Shown here piece after piece: positions 1,521 to 62,327 of a stretch of DNA of 64,000 nucleotides. The DNA is from Octopus vulgaris (Eukaryota). Under the pieces are notes generated by a model that saw only the letters and a program-made list of their open reading frames with translations, was not told the origin of the DNA and did no database searches. The first letter of the stretch is position 1; every line of letters begins with the position of its first letter. The stretch lies in the NCBI GenBank assembly GCA_951406725.2, contig OX597838.1, positions 21,142,001 through 21,206,000 of the forward strand. The letters are read 5' to 3'. A program made the position numbers and the translations under genes.

Positions 1521-1658
1521 CTGTTTGACAGTTGCTACCATTATAACCAGCAGCACATCCTCCACTGCTACAGACACCAGTCTGACGATTACATTTGCTC
1601 TTGTCAGCACAGTGACATGTACTTTTACAGTTTGCTCCAAATTTACCATTTACACACG
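1521..1658 (-). CDS. EGF-repeat exon 22
   Basis: ttttacag|..|gtaagt; [46 protein letters not shown]. Confidence 0.92.
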
Positions 1659-4600
1659 CTGTAAAATACATATGAAACATAGCTTACAACAATGAAATTT
1701 AGGTTATATTGTTAACAGCCAGACAGCACTACAAAAAGACTACAGCCTTCAGAAGACCTTAAAGACGTGGCTATCCTGTCTTAATATTATCCAAGATTAC
1801 CAAGATATCTGGTGCCTCGCTTGTACTCAAGAAAACTCATCCTTCACAGCAGAAGTGTTAATGCCATTCCCCCTGCTGAAAAAGATTGGCTTGCAAGAAC
1901 TTTGTGCCAGTGCCACATAAAAAGTACCCATGGTGGCACCATGCACAAAGAACTCTGCACACTCTGTAAAATGGTTGGCATTAGGAAGGGCATCCAGTCA
2001 TAAAAGCCATGCCAAATCAGACCAGAACCTGGTGCAGTTCTTCTGCTGGTCAGCTCTAGTCAAAGAATCCAACCCATGCCAGCACAGAAATCAAACATTA
2101 AAGAATGATGATGATGATGATGATGAGATGATTACATCAGTAAATGTATCTTTTCCTTATATACTGGGTTGGCAAGAAAGTAATTTCGGTTTGTTAGTGT
2201 GAAATAAAATTTTCTTTTTTCATACAAAGAATAAATGTTAATCAATTATATATTTTCCATTTTGTTCAAAGAACTTTTGCCATCTTTCTGGCAACTTCAT
2301 GATTCCACGCTCATAGAACTTCTGGTCCTTATCAGCCAAAAACAGAACAAAGTGCAATTTCAAGTCATCATCATTATTATTGAAAGTTATTATTATTCAA
2401 AGTTATTATTATTCAAAGAATTTTGCAAACTTCAAAGTAAATGATAATCTGATGATGCGAGGTCAGGGTTATATGGTGGATGTGAGATGACTTCCCAACC
2501 AAGCTCCAATAATTTTTCATGAGTCAGCAAAGATGTGTATGGTCTAGCGTTGTCATGGTGGAACACGATTCCAATTCTGGCCGTTTTTTAACCCATTTCT
2601 GATATGTGCATTCTGTTAAGCAATCAACACCATAAACTTCACATATCTTTTTGTGAGCCTCAGCATCTTTCTTGCCTTTATGGAAAAAAAAGCAAAATAT
2701 TCCAAAAATTGTTCGTTTTTGCACTCCATATTAAAACTGACACTAAACTAAGGGCTGTAATCAAAATTACATGCAATTTGCTTCTAAACTAAGCTAAAGG
2801 TAATGTCTGTCAAATGTCAAAAGACAAAAATCATAACATTGAAAAAAGGCATTAAAAAAAAAGGCATAAACTCTATTTGCGAAAAACGAAATTACTTTCT
2901 TGCCAACCCAATATATAAAATAGTTTGATGAACATCTGACTGCTATTTCTAGCAGGTCAAATAACTGCATAGAGCAGTCAATGGCAAACTGAAGAGTACA
3001 CCTAACCAAAAAATTACCTTGAAATTGTTTAGTAGTGCATCCTGTTTGATGATGAGTCTTAGCCATAAGTAGCCCACTTCTTGTAAAATGCTGCCCTTGC
3101 CCAGCATAGAGCTTGCACCAAGAACGACGACTGATACACCACATATTTTCTTAGTTACAAAACTTATGTGGCACTGTCCGACTTTCAAAGCAAATAATAC
3201 ACAAGATTGTTGCTTCATTGGGGGAATACTGTGGTCTTTGGGTTCAACACTCACATTTTCTCTTTAACCCTTTCGTTACCAACCCGGCTGAGACCAGCTC
3301 TAGCACTATAGTACAAATGTCTTGTTTTGAATTAAGTTCTGAATTAAAATCTTCTACCAAACCTTAGTCACAATTTATGTTCCTAACACTAGCTTAATGA
3401 TAACTAAGTTATTTTACTAAATTATTTGTTATATTTAACCCTTTTGATACCAACCTGGCTGAAACTGCCTCTTCTTCTGTAGTACAAATGTCTTGTTTTC
3501 ATAAGTTCTGAATTAAAATCTTCTTCCACACCTTAGTCACAATTTATGTTCCTAACATTAGCTTAATGTTAGCTAAGTTATTTTACTAAATTATTTGTTA
3601 TATTTAACCCTTTTGATACCAACCTGCCTGAAACTGCCTCTGGCTCTGTAGTACAAATGTTTTGCTTTCATATTAAAATCTTCCACCAAACCTTAGTCAC
3701 AATTTATGTTCCTAACACTTCCTTAATGATAACTGAGTTATTTTACTAAATTCTTTGTTATATTTAAAGTAATTAAAAGAAACACAGAGCATCTCAAAAT
3801 AAATACGGTAACAAAAGGGTTAAAGCACTAAAGGAAAATAACAAAGATATGTTATTACACTGACCTGTTTGACAGTTGCTACCCTCATAACCTGCAGTAC
3901 ATCCTCCACTTGAACACACACCTGTCTGATGGTGACACTTCTTGTTGTCTGCACAGTGACACGTATTTTGACAGTTTGGTCCAAATTTAGCTCCACTGCA
4001 AGCTACAATAAATAAGTAAAAAAATAAATAAACAGAACAACCTTTATTGGCATATTTTGCAGAATAATTTTAGAAGGAAAGGAAAGGAGCTGAATGCAAT
4101 TAGCAATAAGCTTGCTTCCCAACCACATGGTTCTGGTTTCAGTCCCACTGCATGGCACCTTTGGTGAGTGCCTTCTACTATAGTCTTGAGCAGACCAAAA
4201 CCTTGTGAGTGGATTTAGTAGCTGGAAACTAAAAGAAGCTCAGGGTGTGTGTGTGTTTGTTTCCTCCAACCACTTGACAACCGGTGTTGGTGTGTTTACA
4301 TCTCTGTAACCTAGTGGTTCGGCAAAAGAGACCAATAGAATAGGTACCAGGCTTAAAAAAACAAAGTATTGGTGTCGATTCATTTGACTTAAAGTTCTTC
4401 AAAGTGGTGCCCCAGTATGGCCACAGTGTAATGACTGTATCAAGTAAAAGAAAGAAATGAAGCGAAAAAGGTTTTCCAACATAAAGGAACAGAGAGGAAA
4501 TCAACACAATTTTACCTGAGATGACACGGAGAATCATAAAGAACTTCCAGGAATGACTCCATCAATGCATTGCCAACATCAACCGCTATTTGCCCAATGT

Positions 4601-5953: not shown

Positions 5954-6691
5954 GATATGTTGCATCACTAACCTGTTTCACATTTGGTGCCTTCATAACC
6001 TGGAGCACATCCTCCACTGGAGCATACTCCAGTCTGACGGTTACACTTGCTGCTGTCTGCACAGTGGCATATACTTTGACAGTTTGGTCCAAATTTGTCA
6101 TTTACACATACTGCAGAAAAAAAAATATCATAAAACAATGACAAAAAAAAAGTAATAATTTTTTACATAGAGCATACTACCACACATTCAGGGAGAAGCT
6201 CAGTAATTTAGCAATATTTATTCTAGTATTTAAGGACAAACAATGAAATGAAAACCAATCTGGGGAAGTAATTTTGTCTGTTGTGACTATTGAAAAGGTT
6301 GCAAGACGCAATGAAAATTTTAGGAAAATAAAAATTAGAAATATGTGGAAATTTTACCAGTGAGTGTAGTAAGGCACAAAAAGAAAATGACTCTCCCCAG
6401 ACACAACAGAATATGCTTCAACACACGAACTCATATAAAGAATCTTGCAAACCAAATCCCAAAACGAAATATAAATAAATATATATATATATATATATAT
6501 TATATAGAAGGAGCTTCTACAGGACTAGAACTGTTTCATTCAAAAGAAATCATCAGGAAGCTTCCTGATGATTTCTTTTGAATGAAACAGTTCTAGTCCT
6601 GTAGAAACTCCTTCTATATAATAAATTAATTTACTCTGCTATGTATTGAGTACCTTATTTACTGTGGTTAACCCCGACTCAACCCGGGACC

Positions 6692-9753: not shown

Positions 9754-12700
9754 CACAGACAGACAGACCACCAGACAGACAGACAGACAGACAGACCAGA
9801 CAGACAGACAGACAAAGAGATAGACAGATAGATGTCAACAGGTACGTCACGTAGTCAGGTAGATATCAATGGTGGTATGAAATTCTCTCAGTCATTCTTT
9901 AAATGTTTTTTTGTTTGTTATGCACAAAAGTGTGCATATCCCATGCTGGTGTGAGATTGCACATTAATGGCCATGTGAGTAAGGTGCACATTGAATTATT
10001 GAAACATCATTCAGGATAAAACGGTTTCAATGCAACGTCTCGTCAATAAAACCTGCAAGTCATTTGGAGGATTGAAACGGCACGTCGCCATTCATAATAA
10101 ACAAATGGCAAATGAAGTCAATGCTGAAACAGGACATTGCTGCAGTTATTGTGATCAGGATTTCAAATGCCTTTCAGACTTCAGAGTTATTTCAGATCTC
10201 ACGCTAAGAAAGAGAAATTGGAGGCACGGGGAGAGGTTAAGTTCTGCAAGGTGTAGACTGCTATGGTACAGCGAAGTGGCAGAAACGTTAGCACGCCAGG
10301 CGAAATGCTTAGCGGTATTTCGTCTGCGGTTACGTTGTGAGTTCAAATTCCGCCGAGGTCGACTTTGCCTTTCATCCTTTCGGGGTCGATAAATTAGGTA
10401 CCAGTTACGCACTGGGAGTCGATGTAATCGACTTAATACCTATGTCTGTCCTTGTTTGTCCCCTCTGTGTTTAGCCCCTTGTGGGCAATAAAGAAATAGG
10501 TACATATACACAGCAAAAGTAACTGGTTTCCTTTGCTGCTGTGTATTAATCTTTTCTTCTTTGTCTTTTACTTGTTTCAGTCATTAGACTACGGCCATGC
10601 TGGGGCACCACTTTGAAGAAATTTAGTCGAATGAATCAACCTGTTTTTTTTTCTTTATTTTTTTTAAGCCTGGTATTTATTCTATCAATATCTTTTGCTG
10701 AACTGTTAAGTTATGGGGATGCAAACAAACCAACACCAGTTGGTCAGGTGGTGCTGGAGGGACAGACACAAAGACACACACGCACATCAACATATACATA
10801 TGAGCAAATCACCCCCCACCCCCCGTCCAATGGACATCAAACATTTAAACCAAATTCTCTCAAAACAACTTGTCCGACCGTCCCATAAGCCTGACACAAG
10901 TAAAAGAGTAAAGACTAAGAGTAATCATCTACAAAAAAGGAAAAAACTAAGTAAAGGACATGAGTACAAACAGTATAGTAAGCAAGCCCATACACACAAA
11001 ACATGTAGACATGCACACACGCACACACAGATGCAAATGCATATGTGGATAAGGATACATGCCATAGAAAGAGAGAATGGATGAAACAGAACAGGAGGAG
11101 ACACATGGGATGGAGAGTTACTGAAGAGGTTACAAAATGTCCTTTGTGAGCCACTCTCCGGCTATCTATCTGAGGCTTTATATAGCTATGGTGCGGCCTC
11201 ACCTGGACTTGCATCACTGGTCTGGAACCCCTATCTTGCTCAAGATATTAATCATCTGGAAACCGTTCAGCGACGTGCAACCAAGAGAATACCCTCCATC
11301 AAGCATTTGCCATATACTGAATGCCTTACTTCCCTGGGCATGGATACATTGAAACTCCGACATCTGGCAGCTGACTTGGCAGAAACCTATAAAATTATCA
11401 ACCATCTTACAAATAATAACTCTGAGCACCTTTTCGAACTCCACCCGTCTAACACCCGTGGACATGTTTACAAAGTCAGAAAACAGCACAGCTCCCATGA
11501 CTTTCGGAAACATTTTTTCACGCTAAGAATCGCTGAAGTATGGTACAAACTGCCGGCAGCAGTTGTTAGTTGTCAGAGCACTGCATCCATCAAAACTTCC
11601 ATGCTTCCTGAGATATGCCAACACTAAACCTGATTTTCTCCCCTCCATACACACGCAAGCATGTATCTGACTCATACACTGTTCACTTCCCAGACATTTG
11701 TACATTACTGCATATACTTTATACGCACTTTCTGACAAGTTGTGGTGCACCTGAGCACTGCATACAATAATTTTATTATTATTATTATTATTATGTGTAA
11801 CAAAAGATTTCAGATGAAGAACACTAAAATTCGAATAATAATAATAATGCTGAAGTAAAGAACAAATTTATAGTGCATGTATTTGACCATAAAGAATAAA
11901 ATGATCATCCTAAAATATAACTATAATTATATATTGTTATGCCTACCTGTCTGACAGTTTTTACCATCATAACCAGGGGCACATCCGCCACTTGAGCACA
12001 CACCAGTCTGATGGTTACATAAGCTGTTATTTGCGCAGTGGCAGAGGTTTTGGCAGTTTGGGCCAAATTTAGATCTGGTACAAACTGTAAAAAAAAAAAA
12101 AACACGTTAGACAATGATTTGAGAATTTTTTTATTTTCATTTTTTCCTTTTATCAAAAAATATAATTTCAGAACTGAAGATGTAGAACTGGAAATATATA
12201 GCTAACCTTAAAGCATCTGATTAATAAATATAAAAATAAACGAACAAACAACCCATAGTCTTGGGACAATAGGAAATGACCAACAAATCAGAACATACCG
12301 GATATCCTAATAAAACAGAAAATAACTAATCAGAATGAAAAGATATTGTTAAGAAAATCATATGAGATTTTAATGGGTGTGTGATTCGTCTTTTCAGTAA
12401 CAGTTTATAAAGTTTTGGCAAAAAAAAAAAAAAAAAACTCGGTTACTGATTCACTCCAGTTCTCTTCGTGTGTCAATAGAAAACTCTTGATACAGAACAA
12501 ATGATACACAAACATTTGTTTGAAACGCAAGCTACATTTTTTTGGGGGGGGGGTGTTACTGGTTTTTCACTAATAAGCATCAGTAAAAGTCCCATGTATG
12601 CATGTACACACACAAATTTCTTTTCACGTTTAGTCATATGTAGAAACAGTGAAACATTAAAATAAAGGATCATAAAATACTTTCCAGTAGACTATCATAT

Positions 12701-20889: not shown

Positions 20890-22069
20890 ATAATAATTAT
20901 AATAATAATCATAAAATGACAACCAAAGAATGAGACCTTTTTGATTTACTATCAGGTGACTGGTCAACTCTTTATATTTATATAGTTTGTTTCTTCTCAA
21001 GCCATACCTGGTTCATTAGGGCCGGTCTCCCGGATTCCTCCACCTTTATATTTATATACAGCACCAAATTCACTCACAAGCTCATGCCTTGTGAAATGAA
21101 GTGCCCATGGGAGAAGCTACTCCCCCAAAATACAATGGTACCATAATTAAACCTTTGGTTTTGAATGAGCCATCTTCAACACACAACAAAATAATCCATC
21201 GTCTTAGTGTGAGACGTTTTACGCAGTTAGCTAATTAAGCATCCATCAGTGAGGTAATTAATACATCAGCACAGAGACTTGGGAGACACTTGCTGCCGAC
21301 TGCTCATCCTGGCACAGCGCAATCACCACAGGAGCAGGGACAGCCAAGGAGGGACGGATTCGGTCAGCAGAGCAGAAACGCCAGATGCGGAAAGCCAGAG
21401 CCGCCTGCACCAGTAGCACGGCCCCTACCCACTTCTGCCCTACCTGTGGGAGGGGCTTCCTTGCCCGGATTGGCCTCGCCAGCCACCTCCGGTCTCATAG
21501 CGGCAGTTCCACCAGATGATGTCAGTGGTCATCTTTGAACCTGAAGGACGAACATTATTATTATTATTATTATTATTATTAATACAACATGAAAGATATA
21601 CAGTGTCACCAACCTGTTTGGCAGTTGTTGCCCTCATATCCAGCCGCACATCCACCACTGGAGCAAACACCAGTCTCACGGCTACATCTGCTGTTGTTTG
21701 CACAATGACATGTACTGTGGCAGTTTGGTCCGAATTTACCAGTAACACATGCTGTAGAGTAGAACATGAGCCCGTGATAATTATAATGAAATCGTAAACT
21801 AACATAGTATATTGTATATATTCACACACACACACACACAAAGCATACACAGTCAGATGTAATCTTTGCTGGCCCTCGTTCATCAACTTAGCAGTCAACT
21901 CGATCGTCAGGTGTTTAGCTGCGGTCATCACAGTCTTGGCCCCTAAACACAACCGTTCTGTTTGCTGGGCCCAACTTGACTGGGGTTTGGCGCCTTCCCA
22001 GTCAGACTGTCTTGTTGACTGCTCCCTTCAAGGTGGTCACTATCTGAAAGAAGCCCGTTGAATATAGGT

Positions 22070-22147: not shown

Positions 22148-24002
22148 GTGTGTATATTTGTGTGTCTGTGTTTGCCACCCCAACATCGCTTGACAACTGA
22201 TGCTGGTATGTTTACATCCCCGTAACTTAGCAGTTAAGCAAAACAGACCGATAGAATAAGTACTAGGCTAGCAAAGAATAAGTCCTGGGTTTGATTTGCT
22301 CCACTAAAGGCAATGCTACAGCATGGCCACAGTCAAATGACTGAAACAAGTAAGAGTAATAGTCTCAAATTTTGACACTGGGGTGGGCAGCAAGTTCTTC
22401 AGGGGAGTGGGAAGCTAGTTACATCAACCCCAGTACATGACTAGTACTTATTTTATCAATCCAGAAAGAATGAAAGGCAAAGTAGACCATCATAGAATTT
22501 GGATTCAGAACTTAATGATGGATGAAATGCCACTGAGCATTTCAACCAGCACGCTAACAATTCTGCTAGCTTGCCACCTTCAACAATATCTCAATATACT
22601 ATTGGATTGTCCAGAAAGTTCGTGCTGATTTATAGTAGCTTACCTTTCGACTTATTTTAGAACATGGTCAAGTCCATAAAATAGGATTTGACTACACCTC
22701 CATTTAGAGCACAGTTTAAGCTGTCTTTTCGTGGAAGAATATTCATGTTCCTATAACCTGTGTCAATTCTGTAACCCTTTAAAATGGAAGATAAGCACTT
22801 AATGCTTTGGGAACCAGACAAACATTGCTGCAGCTTGGCTGGGATGTGTTACCCCACCTTCCATATTCACCAGATATTGCTCCTTCGGATTTCCACTTAT
22901 TCAGGTCTCTGCAGAATAGTCTTAATGGTAAAAATTTCAATTCCTTGGATGACGTAAAAAGATACCTTGATGAATTCTTTGCCATGAAACCACCTCAATT
23001 CTGGGAAGAGGGTATTTTCAAGTTAAGGGACGCATTGTGCAACAAAATGGTTCATATTTGGTTGATTAAAAATGTAATGGCAAGTATTTATTGACCTTTT
23101 TCTTTCCTTTAAAAATCAGCACAAACTTTCCAGACAACCCGATAATATGTTAGAAAAACAGTAAATATGCTACAACACTCACCATTTTGACAGTTGCTGC
23201 CTTTGTAACCTGGAGCGCATCCTCCACTAGAACACACTCCAGTCTGGCGGTTACACTTGCTGTTGTCTGCACAGTGGCATTTATTTTGGCAGTTTGGTCC
23301 AAATGCATTTGTTGTGCACGCTGAAAGAGAAAAATGAAGTACTGCTTGGGATGATGGTGATGGAGATAATCATGGGTAATGGTAGTAGAAGTAGTCACAA
23401 GGTGATCATAATGGTTGGTAGTGATGGCAGTTGTAGTGGCTGAGATGTTGATGATGGTATTATAAATATTATAATATACATTATACATATACATCATCAT
23501 CATCATCATTTCGCGTCCGTTTTCCATGCTAGCATGGGTTGGACGGTTCAACTGGGGTCTGTGAAGCCGGAAGGCTGCATCAGGCCCAGTCAGATCTGGC
23601 AGTGTTTCTATGGCTGGATGCCCTTCCTAATGCCAATGCCCTTCCTAACGTCAACAAATATACATATATCTATACAAGCATATATACATATACACATACA
23701 TACACACATGCTCCAGCATGGCCACAGTCAAATGACTGAAACAAGTAAAAGAGTAAAGAGTAAAAAAGTACATAAAACTTTCTTTTGTTTTCTGTGTAAG
23801 TCGGACCCTTTTATATACATATGTATATACACATTTTTGTATTTCATGTATTTAATATACTTTAGATATTGATCAGACTAATTTGTTTATCCCTACACTT
23901 ACATATATATATATACTTTTATTCTTTTACTTGTTTCAGTAATCTGACAGAGGCCATGAGTGGACAAATGAAAGAAAAAGTCACTTAACACATTTAGTAG
24001 GA

Positions 24003-30000: not shown

Positions 30001-31012
30001 AGTACAATTGTACACACAAACCAAGGATAATACCAATGAAATATACAAAGTACAACACTTACCTGTTTGGCAGTTGTTACCTTCATAACCAGCAGCACAT
30101 CCACCACTGGAACAAACTCCAGTGTAACGATTACACTTGCTCTTGTCAGCACACTGACATGCACTTTTGCAGTTTGGTCCAAATTTACCAGGTATGCATG
30201 CTATAAGTAGAGTACAACATTATTATTATTTTATACAAGCACAACAGATTAGACTGCTGGAAAAAAATACCTAACGTTAGGCTACAAGTAACACTAGATG
30301 CCAAGAACCACCCTAAGTACTTTAACTTATTATTATTAATAATAATAATAATAATAATCATTAATAATAATAATCAGTAACTTGCCCAAGATGCCACATA
30401 GCAGGACTAAATCCAAGACCACATGGTTGGGAAGCAAACCACCAACCACACATCCATGCCTATGCCTATATATGGCAAATGTTGAGTATTTTATAAAATA
30501 AAAGAAATAAAGAAACCTACTCATAAAATGTACAGTTTCTATTTTGATTGTAAACAAGTCACTGTTCATTGATGAAGGTAATCATCATCATCATCATCAT
30601 TGTTTAACGTCCGTTCTCCATGCTAGCATGGGTTGGACGGTTCGACCGGGATCTGGGAAGCCAGAAGGCTGCACCAGGCTCCAGTCTTATCTGGCAATGT
30701 TTCTACAGCTGGATGCCCTTCCTAACGCCAACCACTCCGTGAGTGTAGTGGGTGCTTTTTACGTGCCACCTGCACAGGTGCCAGGCGAGGCTGGCAACGG
30801 CCACCATAAAGGTGAAGCTGATCTTCGTCTGTCTGTCCATAACAACATATATGTAGAGGGAGGGAAGAAAGAGAGGAGAAAATTTGTTGAGAGAGAGTGT
30901 GTGTGACTGAAGGATAGATAGGTAGTGCTGTCACCTTAGTAACTAACAAGTTTTGGTTAAAACGCAGGAAAGAAGTCTGTTAACACTTTGCAACACAGAC
31001 TAATTTTAAAAA

Positions 31013-54711: not shown

Positions 54712-54883
54712 AATAATAGAGACTCACCAACTTGGCAGTTGGTACCCTCGAACCCAGCAGCACATCCTCCACTGGAGCAGCTACCAGACTGTGGGTTACA
54801 TTTGCTGTTGTCAGCACAGTGACATGTGTTTCTGCAGTTTGGCCCAAATTTTCCTCTGCTACATCCTATAAACAAACAATGAC

Positions 54884-54935: not shown

Positions 54936-57124
54936 CGACGACGACGATGACGATGATGAAAAATCCCCCAAAAGGCAGAAATTCAAAAGATTAGTGCTCA
55001 TGGGAACTGCTCATATCCTACGCAAAATACTTTCTATGTAATCTCAAGTTTTAAAACAAACAATTTTCGTATGGTTTTTTTTAGACATTCACTAGTACAA
55101 CACTAAGTACAAAACCAAATATATGGCACCCTAGGCATAACACCAACATGAAGTTCCAACTTGTCTCTTGAGGTCTCTGGGTGAGACTTGGAGCCAGCTT
55201 GTGCAAATATAAAGCAAAAGCCAAACATAGAATAATAATAATAATAATAATAATAATAGTAATGTATACTTTCATGGCTTCTGATCTTAACTGATTGGAA
55301 GAGTTATCATGTACATTGTTTTGTCTTGGTATAAAAGATGGGCTACAGCAAATATTCTGCTCAATACCACAGATTTGCTTGTCAGTTGTTTGACCTTAAC
55401 CAGTTGAGCACGTCCCTTAGTGGCTGACGTTATGTGCATCTCTGATCACGAGCAGAAGTAGTGGGGGAGCATCATAGCCGTGTGTTGAGAGGGATTCTTT
55501 GGGGTTTGAATAATTCACCTCTGGAAACATGGGTGTTTCGTTCAACATCCTTAAACAACCCTTATTCAGAGACCTTTTGAGCGGGATGGGTTACTCGACT
55601 AGAAGAAAACTCTAACTGGGTCCCACCTGCAAGGTCATGTGCTGTTTATTTTGTTATGAGATCACCATGTCGCGCGCATATGGTGGTGATGCATGTGCCT
55701 AGTGTACCCTTATCAGATGGGTAGTCATGACTGCCCATCTGATAAGGGTACACTAGGCACATGCATAGTAGAAGGCTATAGTAGAAGACACTTGCCCAAG
55801 GTGCCATACAGTGGGAATGAACCCGGAATCATGTGGTTGGTAAGCAAGCTACTTTCCACACAGCCACTCCTGCGCCTATAGTAACAATTATAATAACTAG
55901 CAGGACCCGTGAATATTTCAAGGAATTAATGGTAAACTTTTCAGGTTATTCCCGAAAACTTAATCCCAAAAAATCTGAAAGCATAGCCTATGTTGTGTCT
56001 GTATCAAAAGATAGTCGTTCATCTGCTACTCAATGAGAAGTGAAGGAAACTGGAATATGACACTTATGTCTTTAGCATTTCAACCAGCCGTGTCCTGCCA
56101 AACTATTCTACATTGTTTTACGTTCAAACTGGCCAGATCTGGCCTCTCACACCTACCCTACAATGCCTTTCTAAAAATAAACAATCACATCATCAAAATC
56201 TCAAAGCAACAAGATAGTGCTTGATTAATTCAAAATAATGTAAATAAATAAGCATTACATTTGACAGAAGAATCTGAATGCAAAAGGGTTAATGTACTTT
56301 ATATATACACTTTATATATACACTTCATATATACACTTTATATACTTTATGCACAATTTTATAGACTTAATACACAGCACTGTCCCTCTTTCTCTCTCAC
56401 TCTTCACCTTCCCTGCTTTTCTCTCTTATTTTCCTTTCTCTTTCTCTCTCTTGTTCTTCACCTTCCCTTTCAACTAACTACATAATAGTGTTACAGACGG
56501 GCTAAGTAACGAAGGAAAAAATCTTAGTTCAAAAAAAATTACGTATTTCACTCACCACCAGCTGCCCTTCTCTCTCTGAATCCTCCTCCCCTGTCTCTGA
56601 TCCCCTCCCCCTATCTCTCTGTCCCTTCTCCTTCTCCCCCTCCCCCTCCCTACTCTTTCAACTGATCACGTGAAAGTGTTTCAGATAGGCTAAGTAATAA
56701 TAGAACAGGCAGAATTGTAAGATGATAAATAGTGATGCACATTCACCTACCTGTTTGACAGTTGCTACCCTCATATCCAGCAGCACATCCTCCACTGGAG
56801 CAGCTACCAGACTGTGGGTTACACTTGCTGTTGTCAGCACAGTGACATGTGTTTCTGCAGTTTGGCCCAAATTTTCCTCTGCTACATCCTGCAAAACAAA
56901 CATAACCGATAACAAATATAGGTGCTAAAATGGCTGTTTGGCAAGAAGTTTACTTCCAAACCGCATGGTTTCAGGTTCAGTCCCACAGCATGGCACTTTT
57001 GGTAAGTGTCTTCTACTATAGTCTTGGGCTGACTGAAGTCATCTAGGTGGAATTTGTAGGCAAAAACTGAAAGAAGCTCATCATGTACTAATCATTACTA
57101 ATCATTGCTTTGAATGCACACCAA

Positions 57125-57214: not shown

Positions 57215-60200
57215 CATACATATATACATGTTGAACTGCTGAACCATACTAGTGTTTTTCATTCTCTCTCTGTTTATTTTCTCTTATTCCCTTCTGTTGA
57301 AGAGCGGTGGCTCAAAACATAAAAGATTTTTTTCATTTTTCCCAAGCATCAAACTAATACACTTGCTTGTTGTTCAAACACCTGTCTTCGTTTTTTTTTG
57401 TTTTTCTATAAATTTCAACTATATGTATACATACATACTGTATATTTCTAAGTTTACCTACCTGTCTGACAGGTGCTTCCTTCATAGCCAGCTGCACAGC
57501 CACCACTGGAACAAACACCTGTCTGATGATTACACCTGTTATTGTCAGCACAGTGACATGTCTGCTGACAATTTTGTCCAAATTTTCCGACACTGCACCC
57601 TGAAACATATATACATGTCAACCCATTAATTCTGTGTAAGAACACATAACGCATCTTACCTGTAAAATAATACTTTCTTTATTGGCCACCTGGACCAAAA
57701 ACAAAACATAAAAGATGATACACAGACAAGGGACAGTGGGGATAAACATGTAAATAGCAAATAAAAAAAGCACAACATTTAACATGGAGATTAAACCAAC
57801 AATGTACTTCCCCAATACGGGAGAGCTTCGAGAGATGACCAAAGGAACCTCACACACTTTGGACACGCTAACATCAAAGGCACCTCAGGTAGGCACCCCT
57901 CTCATCCTCATGTGGCCTACAGGTGCACACTTAGAGTAAGCCTATTCACAAGGGCCATTCTTGCCATATTCACCCACCTTTCAGCAAACTTACTGGGTGA
58001 CAGCACCACCCTCTCCAGCCTCATTTTCCTTTTTAGGTGGTACCTGAAAAAGTCAATGAGGCCTTGGCCAAAGAGGAAGGTACCCGCCTTCAACCCTTTC
58101 AGTCGCATCCACCATACAACCTCTTTGACCATAGCCACCAGACAGAAAAAACTGCCTGTCCTTCCTGGCCAAAGGAAGGAGGCAGAGAGATCTTCACAAT
58201 AGACTCGGACGATATCCAGATCCATCCTACATGTGACAATAACTGTTCGACAAAGCACCACAAGTCAGCAATGCATGGACACTGTATGAGAGCATGTAGA
58301 ATGGTTTTTCAGCTACATGTGCATCTCGGACAAGCCTGTCGAACTGCACTAAGTGCATGTAGAGCTTATCACAAACTGGCAGAACCTCCCGGTAGCACTG
58401 CCAGGCCAGGGATTTCTGGTAGCTATCCATAGTTACCTGTTAAATAATATGAAAGCGAAACATCCTTAATATGACTAAGGAGCTTTATGACACAACCCCT
58501 TTAATGTTACCCATAATGCATTATGCCACAAATAAATTGTCATAGTTTATGGATGTATACTTTTTTAGAGAGACTGAGTTGCATCTGCACTGGGGCTGGT
58601 GCTTATTTTCAGCTGAGTAGACTGAAGCAATGTGAAATGAAGAGACTTGCCCAAGAACACAATGCAATACCCAGTATGGGAATTGAACCCACTACCTTAT
58701 GATTATGAGCTGAACACACAGTAGCCCAGTCAAGACGTTAAACACATCTGAACTGAAAACTGTATGTCTTTCATGTTTTACCTTTTACCTGTTTCAATTG
58801 TTGGACTGTGGCCATGCTGGGGCATCCACTTTGAATGGTTTTAGTGAAATGAATCAACCCCAGTACGTATTGTTTTTTTTCTTTCTAAGTCTGGTACTTA
58901 TTCTATTGGTCTCTTTTGCTGAACTGCTAAGTTATAGGGATGTACACAAACCAACACTGGTTGTCAGGGGTGGGTGGGGAGAAAACACAAACGGTGTGCT
59001 GGCAGAAATGTTAGCACACCGGACGAAATGCTTTGCGTTATTTCGTCTGCTGTTACATTCTGAGTTCAAATTCCGCCGAGGCCAACTTTGCCTTTCATCT
59101 TGTCGGGGTCGATAAATTAAGTACCAGTTACGCACTGGGGTCGATGTAATCGACTTAATCCCGTTGTCTGTCCTTGTTTGTCCCCTCTATATTTAGCCCC
59201 TTGTGGGCAATAAAGAAATAACAAACACACCTATCTGCCCATCTTCTGCCTATATATATATATACACACTGTATTTATACATAAATACACATGCACACAT
59301 ACACACACACATATATAGATAGATACATACATACATACGTATTATACACATACAACAGGCTTCTTTCAATTTCCATCTACCACATCCACCCAGAAGGCTT
59401 TGGTTGTTCTAGGACTATAGTAGAAGACACTTGTCCAAGGTGCCACCCAGTGAGACTGAACTTAGAACCATGTGATATAGAAAGCAAATATCTTTACCAC
59501 ACAACCATACCCGTGCCTATATATATATTTTTTTTTTGCAATTTTTGCTATGTCAAAATGATTTAATAATTAACACTTACCTGTTTGACAGTTGCTACCT
59601 GTGTATCCAGCAGCACATCCTCCACTGGAGCAGCTACCAGACTGTGGGTTACACTTGCTGTTGTCAGCACAGTGACATGTGTTTCCGCAGTTTGGCCCAA
59701 ATTTCCCTCTGCTACATCCTACAAAAACAGACAAAAACACAATCAATACTAAATATAAAGTATAAATGATGGCAAAGATCTAAATATCTTCAGATCAAAA
59801 GAAAGAACAGCATGCTTCCTAGTGGCCGTGGGAACTGGTCCTTAATGCTGGAGGGCTTTTGTTCCTGCCTGCATTTAGTAATTTTAACCCTTTCTTTACC
59901 AACCTGGCTAAAACCAGCTCTGTCTGTAGTACAAATGTCTTGCTTTCATAAGTTTTGAATTAAAATCTTCCACCAAACCTTAGTCACAATTTATGTTCCT
60001 AACACTAGCTGAATGATAACTAAGTCATTTTTCTAAATTCTTTGTTACATTTAACCCTTTTGATGCCAACACAGATGACACTGCCTCTGGCTCTGTGATA
60101 CAAATGTCTTGTTTTCAAAAGTCCTGAACTAAAATATTCCACCAAACGTTAGTCACAATTTATGTTCCTAACACTAGCTTAATGATAACTAAGTGATTTT

Positions 60201-61839
60201 TCTAAATTCTTTGTTACATTTAACCCTTTTGATGCCAACCCAGCTGAAACTGGTTCTGGCTCTGAGTACAAATGTTTTGTTTCCTTAAGTTTTGAATTAA
60301 ACTCTTCCACCAAACCTTAGTCACAATTTATGTTCCTATTACTAGCTGAATGATAACAAAGTTATTTTACTAAATTCTTTGTTATATTTAAAGTAATTGA
60401 AAGAAACACAGAGCATCTCAAAATAAATGCAGTAATGAAAAGGTTAAAGAGAGAATCAGTGTGTGCAATTTGATCTCACTTTTTAAACTTCCATGTCTGA
60501 CCACAGTGGCTCAGTGGGCTAAGATAGCTGCAGTGGACAGCAAACTGTAGGTTTTACACAGGAGTGGCCTTCTCCTAGGTAGTGGAGGTGCATGGTTTAG
60601 TGGTTAGGGTGTTGGATTCATGATTGTAAGATTGCAGTTTCGAATCCTGAACCGGCAATGCATTGTGTTCTTGAGCAAGACGCTTTATATCATGTTGCTC
60701 CAGTCCACTCAGCTGGCAAAAATAAGTGATCTTGTGATGGACCAGCGTCCTATCCAGGTGGGGAATATATACACCATGAAACTGGGAAACCAGCCCTTAT
60801 GAATCAGTGTGGCTCAAGAAGGAAAATTTACTTTTACTTTTTTCTCCTCGGTGAATCGACCTCTGTGGTCCAGTGGGCTAAGATGGCTGAGTGACCAGCA
60901 AGGTGTAGGCTTTACATTGGAGAGGCCTCTACTGGCATGGAACCACCAGTGATGGAGAGTATTGGGCCTGGTTGGTTCTATGCTTGATAACATCTCATGG
61001 ACCACTAAGCTGGGATGATCCCAGCCCCATTAAGCAAGTTCATGAAGCATGCTAACAAGGGTCTGATTTAAGGTAGATTTTTACTGCTATTTTTACTACC
61101 TGTAGTACCTAAGTCTTGGCTGTAATGAGTTGTTCACTTACCTGTTTGACAGTTGCTACCTTCATAACCAGCAGCACATCCTCCACTGGAACACACACCT
61201 GTCTGACGGTTACACTTGCTGTTGTCTGCACAATGGCATGTACTTTTACAGTTTGCTCCAAACTTACCAGTGCGACAGGCTAAATATAAAATGAAAGGTA
61301 AATACAGTTCTATATTTAAGAGATGAGGAATTATGTACATCATTTACATTATTTACATTCGACGGATATTTGTCCTCATCTTGTTTGTTGTTAACACAAC
61401 GTTTCGGCTGATATACCCTCCAGCCTTCTTCAGGTGTCTTGGGGAAATTTCAAACCAATAATTGGTCAGATATAAATATAATTCAACACAACAGGAGCTG
61501 TTTTCTTCACGGTCCACTTATCCCATAATTTTCTCAAGGTTGTCTCTTCAGATTTTCTTCAGAAATTATCGAAATTATATCCAGTATTGATTTTTCATAT
61601 CCGAATATGTCTAATGTAAACAATGTGATCAAAGACAGAAGAATAGGTAATGGGTATTTTGTAATGATGATGATGATGGTGGTGGTGATGATGATGGTGG
61701 TGATGATGATGGTGGTGATGATGATGGTGATTTTGATAATGATTATGATTGTGATGGTGGTGGTGATGATGGTGGTTGTGATAATGATGAGGATGTTGAT
61801 GAAGTAATGATGATGATGGAGATGATGTTGGTGATGATA

Positions 61840-61870
<31 letters not shown>

Positions 61871-62130: not shown

Positions 62131-62172
<42 letters not shown>

Positions 62173-62327
62173 CACAAACATTCACTTACCTGTTTGACAG
62201 TTGCTACCCTCGTAACCTGAGGTACAACCTCCACTCGAACACACACCAGTCTGACGGTTGCACTTCTTGTTGTCAGCACAATGACAACTGCTTCTGCAGT
62301 TTGCCCCAAATTTACCACTGGCACAAA
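1521..62327 (-). CDS. Internal part of a multi-exon gene encoding at least 22 tandem 8-Cys EGF-like repeats (MEGF10/11, Draper, CED-1, SCARF-like); extends beyond the window
   Basis: 22 exons of 138 bp, all AG..GT and phase 1-1, with no stops. Cys spacing C-x8-C-x3-C-x-C-x5-C-x6-C-x4-C-x8-C and GxFG/GYxG motifs. Family assigned from motif knowledge only. Confidence 0.9.
2164..2911 (-). mobile_element. Internally deleted mariner-family transposon
   Basis: TIRs (c/t)tgggttggcaagaaagtaatttcg at both ends with TA flanks. Degenerate minus-strand transposase motifs: N-terminal HTH '[13 protein letters not shown]', [18 protein letters not shown]. Confidence 0.85.
3268..3819. mobile_element. piggyBac-like MITE with three ~170-bp internal tandem units
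   Basis: TTAA|CCCTTTCGTTACC..GGTAACAAAAGGG|TTAA; each unit restarts at TTAACCCTTT. Sister copy at 59888-60443. Confidence 0.75.
3865..4002 (-). CDS. EGF-repeat exon 21
   Basis: tattgtag|..|gtcagt; [46 protein letters not shown]. Confidence 0.92.
4686..5066 (-). mobile_element. tRNA-like SINE family A with 50-bp flanking direct repeat
   Basis: Head 'gagtggctgtgtggtaag..gggttcagtccc' (A/B-box-like). Other copies near 4115-4455, 15311-15465, 18722-19780, 33512-33915, 37985-38350, 41600-41996. Direct repeat 4636-4685 / 5067-5116. Confidence 0.85.
5540..5625 (+). ncRNA. Type I hammerhead ribozyme (Penelope pLTR type)
   Basis: CTTTC-CTGATGA-GAAGA..TCTTC-GAAAC-ATAT-GTC^GAAAG: all three stems pair and stem III is palindromic (ACATATGT). 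Confidence 0.8.
5973..6110 (-). CDS. EGF-repeat exon 20
   Basis: ttctgcag|..|gttagt; [46 protein letters not shown]. Confidence 0.92.
6512..6562 (-). ncRNA. Type I hammerhead ribozyme within a loopless palindrome (mirror copy on + strand 6559-6609)
   Basis: AGCTTC-CTGATGA-TTTC TTTT GAAT-GAAACAG TTCTAGTC CTGTA^GAAGCT; stem II is weak. Confidence 0.7.
6919..7099. repeat. Perfect inverted repeat, 87-bp arms, 7-nt loop
   Basis: 6919-7005 is the reverse complement of 7013-7099; loop tgggcag. Confidence 0.9.
8324..8410 (-). ncRNA. Hammerhead-like motif (Penelope pLTR type), partly degenerate; sister copy + ~63838-63925
   Basis: TGCAG-CTGAAGA-TTGC..GCAT-GAAAC-GATC-ATA^CTGCA. Confidence 0.6.
8775..9830. 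repeat. Compound (GACA)n microsatellite
   Basis: Direct reading; source of the spurious SVCL ORFs. Confidence 0.95.
10270..10498 (+). mobile_element. tRNA-like SINE family B
   Basis: 'tggcagaaacgttagcacg..gagttcaaattcc..gtgggcaataaagaaata'. Copies at ~34700-34940 (-), 58992-59220 (+), 22370-22580 (-), 54450-54650 (-), 26140-26540 (+). Confidence 0.8.
11150..11793 (+). mobile_element. CR1/L2-clade LINE 3' fragment
   Basis: [44 protein letters not shown] (post-RT C-terminus); ends in (TTA)n. Confidence 0.85.
11947..12084 (-). CDS. EGF-repeat exon 19
   Basis: ttttacag|..|gtaggc; [46 protein letters not shown]. Confidence 0.92.
12715..13810. repeat. (TA)n/(CATA)n compound micro/minisatellite
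   Basis: Direct reading; source of the YI/VC-rich false ORFs. Confidence 0.95.
13811..14194 (+). mobile_element. Non-autonomous Helitron, subfamily 1
   Basis: 5' TC; 3' hairpin CCCGAGCAACGCCGGG followed by CTAG|T; near-identical to 15494-15871. Confidence 0.8.
14225..14620. repeat. (GACA)n/(GATA)n microsatellite
   Basis: Direct reading. Confidence 0.9.
15494..15871 (+). mobile_element. Non-autonomous Helitron, subfamily 1, inserted in the TA tract of a SINE
   Basis: TC...hairpin-CTAG|T. Confidence 0.8.
15872..16350. repeat. (TA)n/(CATA)n microsatellite
   Basis: Direct reading. Confidence 0.95.
16351..17645 (+). mobile_element. 5'-truncated Penelope-like element: GIY-YIG endonuclease with upstream Cys motif (Neptune-like), low-complexity 3' region and pLTR
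   Basis: [70 protein letters not shown] at ~16351-16745, followed by a hammerhead-bearing pLTR. Confidence 0.88.
17507..17544 (+). ncRNA. Minimal variant hammerhead ribozyme in the Penelope pLTR
   Basis: TCTTT-CTGTTGAA-GAGC GTAG GCTC-GAAAC-GTT^AAAGA. Relatives at ~20723-20756 (-) and ~57290-57326 (+, degenerate). Confidence 0.65.
18400..18483 (-). ncRNA. Hammerhead ribozyme with long stem II in the left arm of inverted repeat 18382-18486 / 18575-18679
   Basis: GGC-CTGAAGA-GTAGC..GCTAT-GAAAC-ATAT-GTA^GCC; the + strand copy has a mutated core (CTGAATA). Confidence 0.7.
19007..19298 (+). mobile_element. tRNA-like SINE family C nested in a family A array
   Basis: 'ggaggcacatggcctagtggttagagcagcggactc' head; TSD caac(t/c)agatggtt. 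Other copies ~28848-29125 (+), 38750-39063 (-), 39320-39665 (+), 63113-63410 (+). Confidence 0.8.
21260..21580 (+). mobile_element. RTE-clade LINE extreme 3' end
   Basis: ..[25 protein letters not shown]2H2-type C-terminus, then (TTA)n tail. Confidence 0.75.
21614..21751 (-). CDS. EGF-repeat exon 18
   Basis: ctctacag|..|gttggt; [46 protein letters not shown]. Confidence 0.9.
22602..23142 (+). mobile_element. Internally deleted mariner-family transposon
   Basis: TIRs ttggattgtccagaaagttcgtgctgattt / aaatcagcacaaactttccagacaacccga with TA flanks; [27 protein letters not shown] motif. Partial copy at ~53647-53780. Confidence 0.88.
23183..23320 (-). CDS. EGF-repeat exon 17
   Basis: tctttcag|..|gtgagt; [46 protein letters not shown]. 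Confidence 0.92.
25179..25316 (-). CDS. EGF-repeat exon 16
   Basis: cttttcag|..|gttagt; [46 protein letters not shown]. Confidence 0.92.
26568..26705 (-). CDS. EGF-repeat exon 15
   Basis: ttctacag|..|gtaaat; [46 protein letters not shown]. Confidence 0.92.
27317..27362 (-). ncRNA. Minimal hammerhead ribozyme in a Penelope pLTR-like repeat (family also at ~630-720, 50240-50500, 61304-61455)
   Basis: GATAC-CTGATGA-C-AGCTG..CAGCC-GAAAC-GTT^GTGTT. Confidence 0.6.
28506..28643 (-). CDS. EGF-repeat exon 14
   Basis: tcttgcag|..|gttggt; [46 protein letters not shown]. Confidence 0.9.
30063..30200 (-). CDS. EGF-repeat exon 13
   Basis: acttatag|..|gtaagt; [46 protein letters not shown]. Confidence 0.92.
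31383..31520 (-). CDS. EGF-repeat exon 12
   Basis: tcttgtag|..|gtaagt; [46 protein letters not shown]. Confidence 0.92.
32074..32290. mobile_element. Mariner-derived MITE
   Basis: Imperfect TIRs gggtgcagaaaaattcctggcttt / aaagccaggaacttttcagcagtccc, after TA. Confidence 0.6.
33975..34112 (-). CDS. EGF-repeat exon 11
   Basis: cgttacag|..|gtaagt; [46 protein letters not shown]. Confidence 0.92.
34620..35132. mobile_element. GGAGTC-repeat hAT-like MITE with a nested family B SINE
   Basis: Multiple GGAGTC/GACTCC motifs; right end cgactccacagccctg. Confidence 0.5.
35996..36133 (-). CDS. EGF-repeat exon 10
   Basis: ttgcacag|..|gtaagt; [46 protein letters not shown]. Confidence 0.92.
36207..36726 (-). 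mobile_element. Non-autonomous Helitron, subfamily 2
   Basis: Same 3' hairpin-CTAG; body matches 47116-47625. Confidence 0.8.
37753..37890 (-). CDS. EGF-repeat exon 9
   Basis: tcttgtag|..|gttagt; [46 protein letters not shown]. Confidence 0.92.
39108..39245 (-). CDS. EGF-repeat exon 8
   Basis: tcttacag|..|gtaagt; [46 protein letters not shown]. Confidence 0.92.
39957..40094 (-). CDS. EGF-repeat exon 7
   Basis: ttgttaaag|..|gtaagt; [46 protein letters not shown]. Confidence 0.9.
42486..44105 (-). mobile_element. Near full-length IR/DR-type Tc1 transposon
   Basis: TA|CAGTTG..CAACTG|TA; ~224-bp TIRs with outer and inner direct repeats ggccaaaatg(t/a)tcagaacgg. Confidence 0.95.
42755..43763 (-). 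pseudogene. Tc1 DDE transposase, inactivated by an in-frame stop (~43467) and a frameshift (~43270)
   Basis: [62 protein letters not shown]. Confidence 0.92.
44500..45808 (-). mobile_element. Decayed second Tc1-family element interrupted by a MITE
   Basis: Left end cactgtgtttcaaattatt with an inner repeat at ~45600; HTH-like '[17 protein letters not shown]', 'KVLFTDK..TLDG', 'GRGIMIWA'. Confidence 0.65.
44681..45096. mobile_element. Merlin-like MITE
   Basis: ~90-bp TIRs starting GGC(A/G)ATCTTTCG (GGNRM terminus); 8-bp TSD CCCATTCC at 44673-44680 / 45097-45104. Confidence 0.75.
46380..46850. repeat. Imperfect inverted repeat containing degenerate (TAACCC)n/(GGGTTA)n
   Basis: 46380-46590 mirrors 46697-46850. 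Confidence 0.75.
47116..47625 (+). mobile_element. Non-autonomous Helitron, subfamily 2
   Basis: A|TC...CTAG|T with no TSD; removing it restores a palindromic host element. Confidence 0.88.
48220..48545. repeat. (GAT)n/(GGT)n low-complexity tract
   Basis: Direct reading. Confidence 0.9.
49320..50138. repeat. Large inverted duplication: 378-bp arms, 63-nt spacer
   Basis: 49320-49697 vs 49761-50138; the mirror ORF pairs in the ORF track agree. Confidence 0.93.
50553..51010 (+). mobile_element. Tc1/mariner-superfamily (maT/DD37D-like) fragment
   Basis: Start cagggtg..; '[44 protein letters not shown]'. Confidence 0.6.
51011..52377 (-). mobile_element. 5'-truncated RTE-clade LINE; its 3' tail recurs as many short copies
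   Basis: [51 protein letters not shown]; repeated 3' UTR ending ccaacccatgctagcatgg..(GAT)n. Tails also near 7115-7320, 29420-29870, 30585-30800, 37150-37615, 40230-40645, 53395-53645. Confidence 0.88.
52501..52897 (-). mobile_element. Non-autonomous Helitron (subfamily 2 left end, internal duplication)
   Basis: CTAG-hairpin end; shares 5' part with 36207-36726. Confidence 0.8.
53082..53147 (-). CDS. Candidate 66-bp frame-preserving (phase 1-1) non-EGF exon
   Basis: tttttttctttttgaaatag|AA GTT GTG..GAT TCA G|gtaagc; (E)[21 protein letters not shown]. No homology or transcript support. Confidence 0.35.
54049..54136 (-). ncRNA. Hammerhead ribozyme, same pLTR family as 5540-5625
   Basis: TTTCC-CTGAAGA-GAAGA..TCTTT-GAAAC-ATGT-GTT^GGAAG. 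Confidence 0.65.
54728..54865 (-). CDS. EGF-repeat exon 6 (GCSRGK subfamily)
   Basis: gtttatag|..|gtgagt; [46 protein letters not shown]. Confidence 0.92.
54960..55260 (+). mobile_element. R4/Dong-like (RLE-endonuclease) non-LTR 3' end in an (AAT)n tract
   Basis: [20 protein letters not shown]-terminus; flanked by (AAT)n, the known Dong-type target. Confidence 0.7.
56751..56888 (-). CDS. EGF-repeat exon 5 (GCSRGK subfamily)
   Basis: ttttgcag|..|gtaggt; [46 protein letters not shown]. Confidence 0.92.
57462..57599 (-). CDS. EGF-repeat exon 4
   Basis: tgtttcag|..|gtaggt; [46 protein letters not shown]. Confidence 0.92.
57673..58432 (-). mobile_element. 5'-truncated Tx1/L1-clade LINE with 17-bp TSD
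   Basis: [49 protein letters not shown]; TSD ttacctgt(a/t)aaataata at 57656-57672 / 58433-58449. Confidence 0.78.
59581..59718 (-). CDS. EGF-repeat exon 3 (GCSRGK subfamily)
   Basis: tttttgtag|..|gtaagt; [46 protein letters not shown]. Confidence 0.92.
59888..60443. mobile_element. piggyBac-like MITE with three tandem units (sister of 3268-3819)
   Basis: TTAA|CCCTTT..AAAGG|TTAA. Confidence 0.75.
61142..61279 (-). CDS. EGF-repeat exon 2
   Basis: atatttag|..|gtaagt; [46 protein letters not shown]. Confidence 0.92.
61393..61438 (-). ncRNA. Minimal hammerhead ribozyme in a pLTR-like repeat, sense to the host pre-mRNA
   Basis: GACAC-CTGAAGA-A-GGCTG GAGGGTATAT CAGCC-GAAAC-GTT^GTGTT. Confidence 0.68.
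61660..62170. repeat. (GAT)n/(GGT)n low-complexity tract
   Basis: Direct reading; source of the poly-His/Ser/Met false ORFs. Confidence 0.93.
62190..62327 (-). CDS. EGF-repeat exon 1 (transcription order)
   Basis: cttttacag|..|gtaagt; (V)[45 protein letters not shown]. Confidence 0.92.

What the first reader, a model, noticed from the sequence alone, without database searches (positions are those of the whole stretch)
1521..62327. Array of 22 interchangeable 138-bp phase 1-1 exons, each encoding one variant 8-Cys EGF module: possible combinatorial receptor
Seen: all 22 exons have the same length and phase, end in the same split G, keep all 8 Cys and have no indels or stops, although introns of 0.57-14.6 kb are full of unrelated TEs. 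Variation clusters in the residues after Cys1, after Cys2, around Cys5 and before Cys8. GGC is invariant; FGxNC and CxC are fixed. All 22 peptides differ. Known: MEGF10/Draper/CED-1/SCARF-type EGF proteins act as engulfment or recognition receptors. Inference: any subset of exons can be joined in frame, so this could be a splicing-diversified, variable-length recognition molecule (Dscam-like in spirit). The simpler alternative is one long constitutive EGF rod. I see no docking/selector motifs, and the introns are too long for steric mutual exclusion.
Basis: partly seen in the sequence, partly recalled or inferred. Interest (0 to 1): 0.78.

Follow-up and report, generated by a model that had tools for sequence, protein, structure and literature searches.

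The report
Giant lectin-tipped EGF-stalk surface receptor
The 22 repeated exons are the middle of one very large gene whose product is predicted to be a cell-surface receptor (lectin-like tip, 59-repeat stalk, membrane anchor, tyrosine-rich tail) of a family already described in snails; spliced transcripts join neighbouring exons in order wherever they could be read, so it is likely one long stalk rather than a mix-and-match receptor.

Summary
Observation confirmed: 22 exons of 138 nt, phase 1-1, minus strand, 8 Cys each. They belong to a run of 59 EGF exons in a gene of about 195 kb. The modelled protein has about 3,350 aa: signal peptide, 2 EGF, F-type-lectin-like domain, 59 EGF modules, TM helix, tail with 7 YxxM motifs. 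This matches the SCARF/MEGF10-like receptors described in snails; this genome holds at least 17 other such lectin exons.

The combinatorial reading is mostly unsupported. All 6 distinct junctions seen on both sides in spliced contigs are adjacent (3 inside the window). Two contigs equal, to the base, unitigs simulated from the all-exons mRNA (484 and 193 nt); general single-exon skipping would cap them at 184 nt. dN/dS is 0.19, with no positive selection in a test that had power. No selector-like motif was found.

Against this: 10 of 21 window junctions have no RNA evidence, contigs drop minor isoforms, one contig's ends fit a two-exon skip just upstream, and mouse Megf11 does skip EGF exons combinatorially. 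Verdict: an unusually long member of a known family, mostly constitutive; minor skipping possible.

The parts
62190..62327 (-). EGF exon, 138 nt (exon 9 of the 59-exon run; 8 more EGF exons, the lectin-like exons and the start exon lie beyond the window's right end, see the Full report section)
61142..61279 (-). EGF exon, 138 nt
59581..59718 (-). EGF exon, 138 nt; 96% identical to the exon at 56751-56888
57462..57599 (-). EGF exon, 138 nt
56751..56888 (-). EGF exon, 138 nt
54728..54865 (-). EGF exon, 138 nt; followed by the 14.6-kb intron
39957..40094 (-). EGF exon, 138 nt
39108..39245 (-). EGF exon, 138 nt
37753..37890 (-). EGF exon, 138 nt; in a 193-nt spliced contig of run X1
35996..36133 (-). 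EGF exon, 138 nt
33975..34112 (-). EGF exon, 138 nt
31383..31520 (-). EGF exon, 138 nt; spliced to the next exon in X1
30063..30200 (-). EGF exon, 138 nt; spliced to both neighbours in X1
28506..28643 (-). EGF exon, 138 nt; spliced to the previous exon in X1
26568..26705 (-). EGF exon, 138 nt
25179..25316 (-). EGF exon, 138 nt
23183..23320 (-). EGF exon, 138 nt; spliced to the next exon in X1
21614..21751 (-). EGF exon, 138 nt; in a 730-nt contig of X1 and of X8
11947..12084 (-). EGF exon, 138 nt
5973..6110 (-). EGF exon, 138 nt
3865..4002 (-). EGF exon, 138 nt
1521..1658 (-). EGF exon, 138 nt (exon 30 of the 59-exon run; 29 more EGF exons and the predicted TM and cytoplasmic exons lie beyond the window's left end, see the Full report section)

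Best explanation
The 22 exons are the central third of a run of 59 one-module EGF exons in a single gene that is predicted to encode a type I membrane receptor of the molluscan SCARF/MEGF10-like family, and the exons are likely spliced mostly all together and in order into one long stalk. Shown: exon structure, one open frame, lectin-like domain, adjacent splicing at the junctions read, purifying selection. Predicted from sequence: signal peptide, TM helix, cytoplasmic exons. Inferred mechanism: the run grew by tandem duplication of symmetric phase 1-1 exons (unequal crossing-over), which is why every exon is in-frame interchangeable. The stalk would hold the N-terminal lectin-like and EGF tip far from the membrane, and its cationic middle might add low-affinity binding to anionic surfaces. 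Ligand binding would lead to phosphorylation of the 7 YxxM motifs and recruitment of an SH2 protein, likely PI3K p85 (motif specificity recalled), driving engulfment or adhesion. Diversity in this family appears to come mainly from gene duplication and repeat-number change, not from splicing.
For: Gene model: one frame of 3,311 aa without the 143-nt exon, with all splice phases compatible. A 2,146-nt spliced contig of run X1 has the length the 5' model predicts with 55 nt of UTR, and its 20-mismatch piece fits exon 77567 (4 of 61 exons give 20, only that one upstream). Junctions with both sides listed: 6 of 6 distinct are adjacent. Simulated unitigs of the all-exons mRNA include 484 and 193 nt, the exact X1 contig lengths. 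Only 1 of 37, 1 of 15, 2 of 42 and 3 of 18 candidate neighbours reproduce the observed flanks, each set including the adjacent exon. With every single-exon skip present, the longest window unitig would be 184 nt, against 484 and 730 observed. dN/dS 0.19, 0 of 231 pairs with dN above dS. M1a/M2a and M7/M8 give no gain; the test detected 12 of 12 and 10 of 12 simulated cases. No shared intronic word above shuffles, no docking candidate. Best PDB match of the repeat is SCARF1 (E 6.4e-6). Same architecture in Biomphalaria subgroup 1B (PMC13712769). 17 other lectin-exon matches in this genome, 10 on C14; one C14 paralog has 31 EGF hits in A/B tandem units.
Against: 10 of 21 window junctions have no RNA evidence, and only 3 of the other 11 were seen on both sides. 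Contigs drop rare variants, both junction tables were cut and swamped by transposon rows, and tissues are unknown. The 334-nt X8 contig ends 29 nt beyond a junction on each side at non-repeated sequence. Of six graphs tested, only 'skip of exons 70347 and 68820 plus unspliced intron' gives 334 nt; a SNP was not modelled and could also do it. Mouse Megf11 makes 234 isoforms by modular EGF skipping (PMC7335077). An oyster relative has 24 database isoforms; 14 of 14 compared with the longest lack 1-4 whole modules (predicted models). The selector search covered only 20,541 of 132,688 intron bases after masking. Ligand, phosphorylation and cell type are untested. The lectin-like domain lacks the canonical fucose-binding residues.
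Confidence: 0.7

Rival explanations
1. Megf11-type modular skipping: the same receptor, but many EGF cassettes are skipped at substantial frequency in some tissues or cells, giving a large family of stalks that differ in length and module content.
For: All 59 run exons are phase 1-1. Each exon holds an even, self-contained Cys set if the laminin-type pairing applies (weak Pfam match, E 0.061). The X8 334-nt contig fits a two-exon skip. Precedent in mouse Megf11 and predicted oyster isoforms. Three exons use GC donors.
Against: 6 of 6 seen junctions are adjacent; by their lengths, contigs of 484, 730 and 2,146 nt run unbroken over 4, 5 and 13 junctions. Window exons have strong splice sites (mean acceptor 11.1 and donor 8.1 bits, against 10.4 and 7.3 for the other 39, on a matrix trained on the same exons). 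Modules are 84% alike and not positively selected, so swapping changes little. Several oyster deletions follow the repeat period, as mis-mapped reads would.
Confidence: 0.2
2. Dscam1-type mutually exclusive cluster: one or a few of the variant exons are chosen per transcript through docking/selector pairing, giving different binding specificities.
For: Equal-length tandem paralogous exons, all different, with variation in a few positions.
Against: Single contigs contain three or more consecutive array exons. No selector or docking candidate. Shortest intron 568 nt. Two included exons stay in frame, so nothing removes double inclusion. No positive selection.
Confidence: 0.02
3. Stalk length varies between alleles or species at DNA level (unequal crossover, exon conversion), and that, not splicing, is the functional diversity. 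Compatible with the best explanation.
For: Exons of 93-96% identity (89-93% at third positions, against a median of 62%) whose flanks are mostly at background. The assembled exon 66218 carries its neighbour's letter at 16 of 16 positions where X1 and X16 differ. A C14 paralog has near-identical A/B units, some partial.
Against: Most duplications are old (mean dS 0.87). A run test on silent sites shows no partial conversion tracts (451 of 500 and 202 of 500 permutations reach the observed value). The 16-of-16 case may be a polishing artefact. No second genome of this or a sister species could be read.
Confidence: 0.08

Closest known systems
[quoted passage not shown]
   Same: Signal peptide, galactose-binding/fucolectin-like domain, EGF/Tie2-type repeats, one TM helix, no catalytic domain; clustered paralogs in the genome.
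   Different: 59 modules in one run: the most stretches among the 150 best hits was 42, counted with a profile built from these exons. A tail of about 215-230 aa with 7 YxxM motifs; no relative found for it. No PTP domain as in subgroup 1C.
Human SCARF1 (PDB 8hna; PMC11563577)
   Same: Same repeat type (best PDB hit, E 6.4e-6); type I membrane protein. SCARF1 binds modified LDL through positive residues (abstract); 20 of 22 window modules are net positive.
   Different: Far longer, has a lectin-like domain, different tail; orthology not tested.
MEGF10/MEGF11/Draper/CED-1
   Same: One exon per EGF module, TM helix, tyrosine motifs.
   Different: No NPxY and no paired YxxL/I ITAM in the modelled tail. 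No EMI match in the N-terminal exons scanned; a lectin-like domain instead. Extensive skipping not seen here.
Arthropod Dscam1 (recalled)
   Same: Tandem paralogous exons of equal phase.
   Different: Consecutive exons are included together; no docking/selector found; no diversifying selection.
Branchiostoma and chiton proteins with the same GGC-type repeat
   Same: 61-70% identity to one exon; up to 22 matched stretches.
   Different: The repeat is fused to kinase, 7TM, fibrinogen, TIR, FN3 or PTP domains: a mobile spacer module.

Membership tests
Molluscan SCARF-like receptor, subgroup 1B | Signal peptide | tested here: inconclusive
   Hydrophobic N-terminal exon in frame and contig length fits; no prediction program run
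Molluscan SCARF-like receptor, subgroup 1B | Galactose-binding / fucolectin-like extracellular domain | tested here: met
   PF22633 29.6 bits against cut-off 27.8; PDB F-type lectins E 2.6e-7 and 7.5e-6
Molluscan SCARF-like receptor, subgroup 1B | SCARF/Tie2-type EGF repeats | tested here: met
   SCARF1 best PDB hit; Pfam EGF_STAB1-2 E 2e-5 to 6e-4, below its cut-off
Molluscan SCARF-like receptor, subgroup 1B | Single TM helix and tail without catalytic domain | tested here: met
   82-nt hydrophobic exon in phase; no PTP or kinase among 150 of 173 candidate downstream ORFs; link to the array not checked in RNA
Subgroup 1C / MEGF-GBD receptor phosphatases | Tandem PTP domains | tested here: not met
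   0 of 150 ORFs scanned hit a phosphatase family; ORFs were filtered for length (38 aa or more) and repeats
Fucose-binding F-type lectin | His plus R-x-D-x4-R/K binding motif (motif recalled) | tested here: not met
   Arg at the position where 1k12, 3cqo and 2j22 have His; no R-x-D after the following strand in the model
MEGF10/Draper/CED-1 | N-terminal EMI domain (recalled; named in PMC7335077 legend) | tested here: inconclusive
   No EMI hit in single exons scanned; the two-exon unassigned domain could not be scanned joined
MEGF10/Draper/CED-1 | NPxY and YxxL/I ITAM in the tail (NPxY recalled) | tested here: not met
   No NPxY; one YxxL only, in the read-through part; tail is a prediction
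MEGF10/Draper/CED-1 | Engulfment activity | not testable with these tools
   Needs cell assays
Dscam1-type mutually exclusive array | One exon of the cluster per transcript | tested here: not met
   Contigs hold 3 or more consecutive exons
Dscam1-type mutually exclusive array | Docking site and selector sequences | tested here: inconclusive
   None in the 20,541 unmasked of 132,688 intron bases; no cross-species comparison possible
Megf11-type modular skipping | Many non-adjacent EGF junctions in full-length transcripts | tested here: inconclusive
   0 of 6 seen junctions skip; long unbroken contigs; one indirect hint in X8; no long reads

The most novel reading that the evidence does not exclude
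A 59-cassette lectin receptor that uses Megf11-type in-frame exon skipping in some tissues to make a large repertoire of stalk lengths and module combinations, read out through a seven-YxxM tail: a cassette array several times larger than Megf11's, and a splicing-based recognition repertoire in a mollusc.
Probability: 0.15. Interest if true: 0.62.

Novelty: new member of a known kind. Interest (0 to 1): 0.3.

Why it matters
As it stands: an extreme-length member (59 modules, about 3,350 aa) of the lectin-EGF receptor family whose snail members lie in regions associated with schistosome resistance (PMC13712769, PMC12297450). It has a tandem YxxM tail for which I found no relative, which gives a direct signalling hypothesis. 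It also shows that in-frame interchangeability of exons follows from how such arrays grow and is not by itself evidence of splicing diversity. If substantial skipping were found, it would extend the Megf11 mechanism to a mollusc at more than twice the exon number.

Tried and rejected
Regex search for a classical EGF pattern found only microsatellite translations. Whole-region self-BLAST timed out; k-mer masking was used instead. Pfam scan of 150 downstream ORFs gave no PTP or kinase. No RNA holder was on record; I treat X1 and X8 as RNA because their contigs join exons at exact splice sites, while X16 runs through the exon borders. In some searches the joint tables were filled by transposon rows (292 and 1,927 rows hidden), so the lack of skip rows there is not used as evidence. 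Runs X3, X5 and X10 gave only short or repeat pieces, none with a junction listed on both sides. A run test on all polymorphic sites looked significant (0 of 200) but vanished on silent sites: rejected as clustering of amino-acid variation. The neighbour test for the 730-nt contig was mis-specified (the assembly predicts a break inside it) and gave nothing. AlphaFold model of one exon had mean pLDDT 66.5 and was not used. Atlas search of the unassigned domain gave no hit. Tail search gave no homolog among 737 candidates (weak, length-limited). No TM or tail exon was identified for the C14 paralog. Earlier scan findings: none. PMC11703226 passages were not relevant. Eater/Nimrod searches gave nothing usable, so that analogy is left out.

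Full report
Observation. All 22 are 138 nt, AG/GT-bounded, phase 1-1, free of stops and indels, with 8 invariant Cys and 22 different peptides; introns are 573-14,633 nt. Mean column identity is 84%.

The whole gene. The window is G000:C25:21,142,001-21,206,000 in a 2.8-Gb genome. I fetched 200 kb on each side. The array continues: 8 exons upstream and 29 downstream, 59 in one run, plus 2 more EGF exons near the start; 56 of the 61 are 138 nt. Splice-site scans trained on these exons found a start exon with a signal-peptide-like stretch, two exons of an unassigned domain, two exons of a lectin-like domain, an 82-nt hydrophobic exon, a Pro-rich exon and an exon with tandem tyrosine motifs. Joined, they give one frame of 3,311 aa when the single 143-nt exon is left out. 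The tail has six YE[V/A]M and one YDEM, and no NPxY; a strong donor and a candidate last exon suggest that it ends slightly differently. The lectin-like exon passes the cut-off of PF22633 and matches F-type lectins in the PDB, with Arg in place of their His. No phosphatase or kinase was found among 150 of 173 candidate downstream ORFs.

Parts outside the window (minus strand, G000:C25 coordinates). Start exon 21268408-21268303 (assigned by eye); EGF 21249958-21249812; unassigned domain 21245984-21245850 and 21241999-21241832; EGF 21234205-21234062; lectin-like 21231705-21231448 and 21228366-21228178; 8 run exons 21223820 to 21206176; 29 run exons 21140323 to 21081060; TM 21080126-21080045; cytoplasmic 21078372-21078257 and 21076138-21075696; candidate last exon from 21071108. 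Elsewhere in this report an exon is named by its first base in extended window coordinates (C25 position minus 21,142,000), so numbers above 64000 lie upstream of the window.

Splicing, direct evidence. Twenty of 24 listed runs hold at least half of the words of one exon, none on record as RNA. I laid 6 distinct runs in two calls. Contigs of X1 join exons at exact splice sites: 31520 to 30200, 30200 to 28643, 23320 to 21751, and upstream 70347 to 68820, 68820 to 66218, 66218 to 65444. X8 repeats 70347 to 68820. So 6 of 6 distinct junctions seen on both sides are adjacent. The tables were cut and dominated by transposon rows, so absence of skip rows counts for nothing.

Splicing, indirect evidence. 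I simulated the k=31 graph of the all-exons mRNA. It predicts unitigs of 484 nt (34112+114 to 26705+45) and 193 nt (39245+104 to 36133+20), exactly the lengths and offsets of two X1 contigs, and a break at 25316+5, where the 730-nt contig of X1 starts; X8 has a contig of the same length and placement. The 7 X1 ends examined all lie at 30-mers repeated exactly (5) or with one mismatch (2). One predicted break inside the 730-nt contig is not seen, which a SNP would explain. Few other neighbours reproduce the observed flanks: 1 of 37, 1 of 15, 2 of 42, 3 of 18. With all single-exon skips added, no window unitig exceeds 184 nt. This supports adjacent splicing at 11 of 21 window junctions: 3 seen, 5 inferred from matching ends, 3 from length only. 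Ten are unexamined. The 2,146-nt X1 contig fits the 5' model with 55 nt of UTR. Contig assembly removes weak branches (the tool says so; a threshold near 20-25% is recalled), so minor skipping is invisible.

Splicing, evidence for skipping. The 334-nt X8 contig holds exons 70347 and 68820 plus 29 nt of each neighbour, and neither end is repeated sequence. Among six graphs, skip alone gives 335 nt, two unspliced introns 333 nt, and skip plus one unspliced intron 334 nt. X8 has intronic contigs. A SNP at the right place would also explain the end and was not modelled; X1 runs through the same junctions unbroken. It is a weak hint of a minor two-exon skip outside the window. An oyster relative has 24 database isoforms, and 14 of 14 compared with the longest lack 47-197 aa, that is 1-4 modules (15 of 24 were listed); these are predicted models of a repetitive gene.

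Selection. Pairwise dN 0.16, dS 0.87, ratio 0.19; 0 of 231 pairs have dN above dS. My codon models reproduce the IQ-TREE likelihood and give no gain for M2a over M1a or M8 over M7, from four starts for M2a. Simulations with 15% of sites at omega 3 or 2 were detected in 12 of 12 and 10 of 12 cases. About a third of sites are near neutral. The 'variable loops' are relaxed, not diversified.

Selector search. Shortest intron of the run 568 nt; the strongest flank matches are out-of-register repeat copies. After masking, 20,541 of 132,688 intron bases remained; the most shared 9-, 10- and 12-mers did not exceed shuffles, and no 11-mer had complements in three or more introns.

How the array grew. 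Central exons have best matches of 77-96%, outer ones mostly 45-76%, and the 3' part shows two-exon periodicity (lag 2: 62%, lag 1: 52%), as expected from unequal crossing-over. Four exons are 93-96% identical while their flanks are mostly at background, which suggests whole-exon conversion; partial tracts were not shown on silent sites. The out-of-frame exon 66218 is 138 nt and included in X1, and X16 shows the same 16 differences and 5-nt gap; the assembly has the neighbour's letter at all 16. It is an assembly artefact or a conversion allele, not a pseudo-exon that forces skipping.

Family. The repeat's best solved relative is SCARF1. A profile search gave 1,694 hits at E 0.001; of ten top hits looked up, four are Branchiostoma proteins and six molluscan, the repeat being fused to many other domains. 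In this genome the lectin exon has 18 matches of 20 candidates, 10 on C14, and about 80 of 114 EGF matches lie on C14 (150 of 299 candidates scored, so a lower bound). One C14 paralog has 31 EGF hits in A/B units behind its lectin exons. PMC13712769 (passages and section 20) defines subgroup 1B with this architecture; PMC12297450 (passages) describes clustered MEGF/GBD genes; PMC11563577 (abstract) reports long curved EGF domains and ligand binding through positive residues in SCARF1. Searches showed no paper on this gene, judged from listings only; the library lacks most subscription papers and I opened no supplements, where gene lists may name it.

Mechanism. Shown: modular exons, adjacent splicing where read, purifying selection. 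Predicted: type I topology. Inferred: a long stalk presents the lectin-like tip; 20 of 22 window modules are net positive and the last 6 modules net negative, which may favour binding of anionic surfaces in the middle; clustering would phosphorylate the YxxM motifs and recruit PI3K (recalled specificity) for engulfment or adhesion. None of this was tested.

Verdict. Real, correctly described, and mostly ordinary: a very long member of a known receptor family. Interest 0.3. Probability of substantial modular skipping about 0.15-0.2; of some minor skipping, perhaps one in two.

Noticed in passing
G000:C14:73.3-75.1 Mb (L041-L060 cover 73.97-74.17 Mb): Cluster of 10 lectin-exon matches and about 80 EGF matches on both strands. 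One gene has 31 EGF hits in near-identical A/B two-exon units, some partial: a recently expanding paralog family and a better candidate for copy-number diversity than the present gene.
   Followed up: partly
L001:2076-2218: Assembled exon is 143 nt and equals its neighbour at 16 of 16 positions where runs X1 and X16 differ: polishing artefact or conversion allele.
   Followed up: partly
L027:3696-4138: Cytoplasmic exon built of 11-residue repeats in which YE[V/A]M alternates with Tyr-less copies (CEEM, REEM); single locus in the genome, no homolog found.
   Followed up: partly
G000:C25:21207307, 21135126, 21133042: Three array exons use GC-AG donors.
   Followed up: no
L004:5832-5999 and L004:9850-9984: Two predicted phase 1-1 exons form a domain of about 100 aa with no Pfam, relative or Atlas hit; by eye possibly a degenerate lectin-like domain.
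   Followed up: partly
window 42758-43399, minus strand: DDE_3 transposase fragment (E 4.8e-13) in the 14.6-kb intron.
   Followed up: no
G000:C25:20958660-20958791, minus strand: A frame that looks by eye like an LRR N-terminal cap, probably the next gene downstream (seen).
   Followed up: no
whole run, window exons versus last 6 exons: Charge gradient: middle modules mostly net +1 to +4, membrane-proximal modules net -2 to -5.
   Followed up: no
P0017 cluster (Saccostrea cucullata): 24 database isoforms differing by whole EGF modules; worth checking against long reads as a test of skipping in this family.
   Followed up: partly
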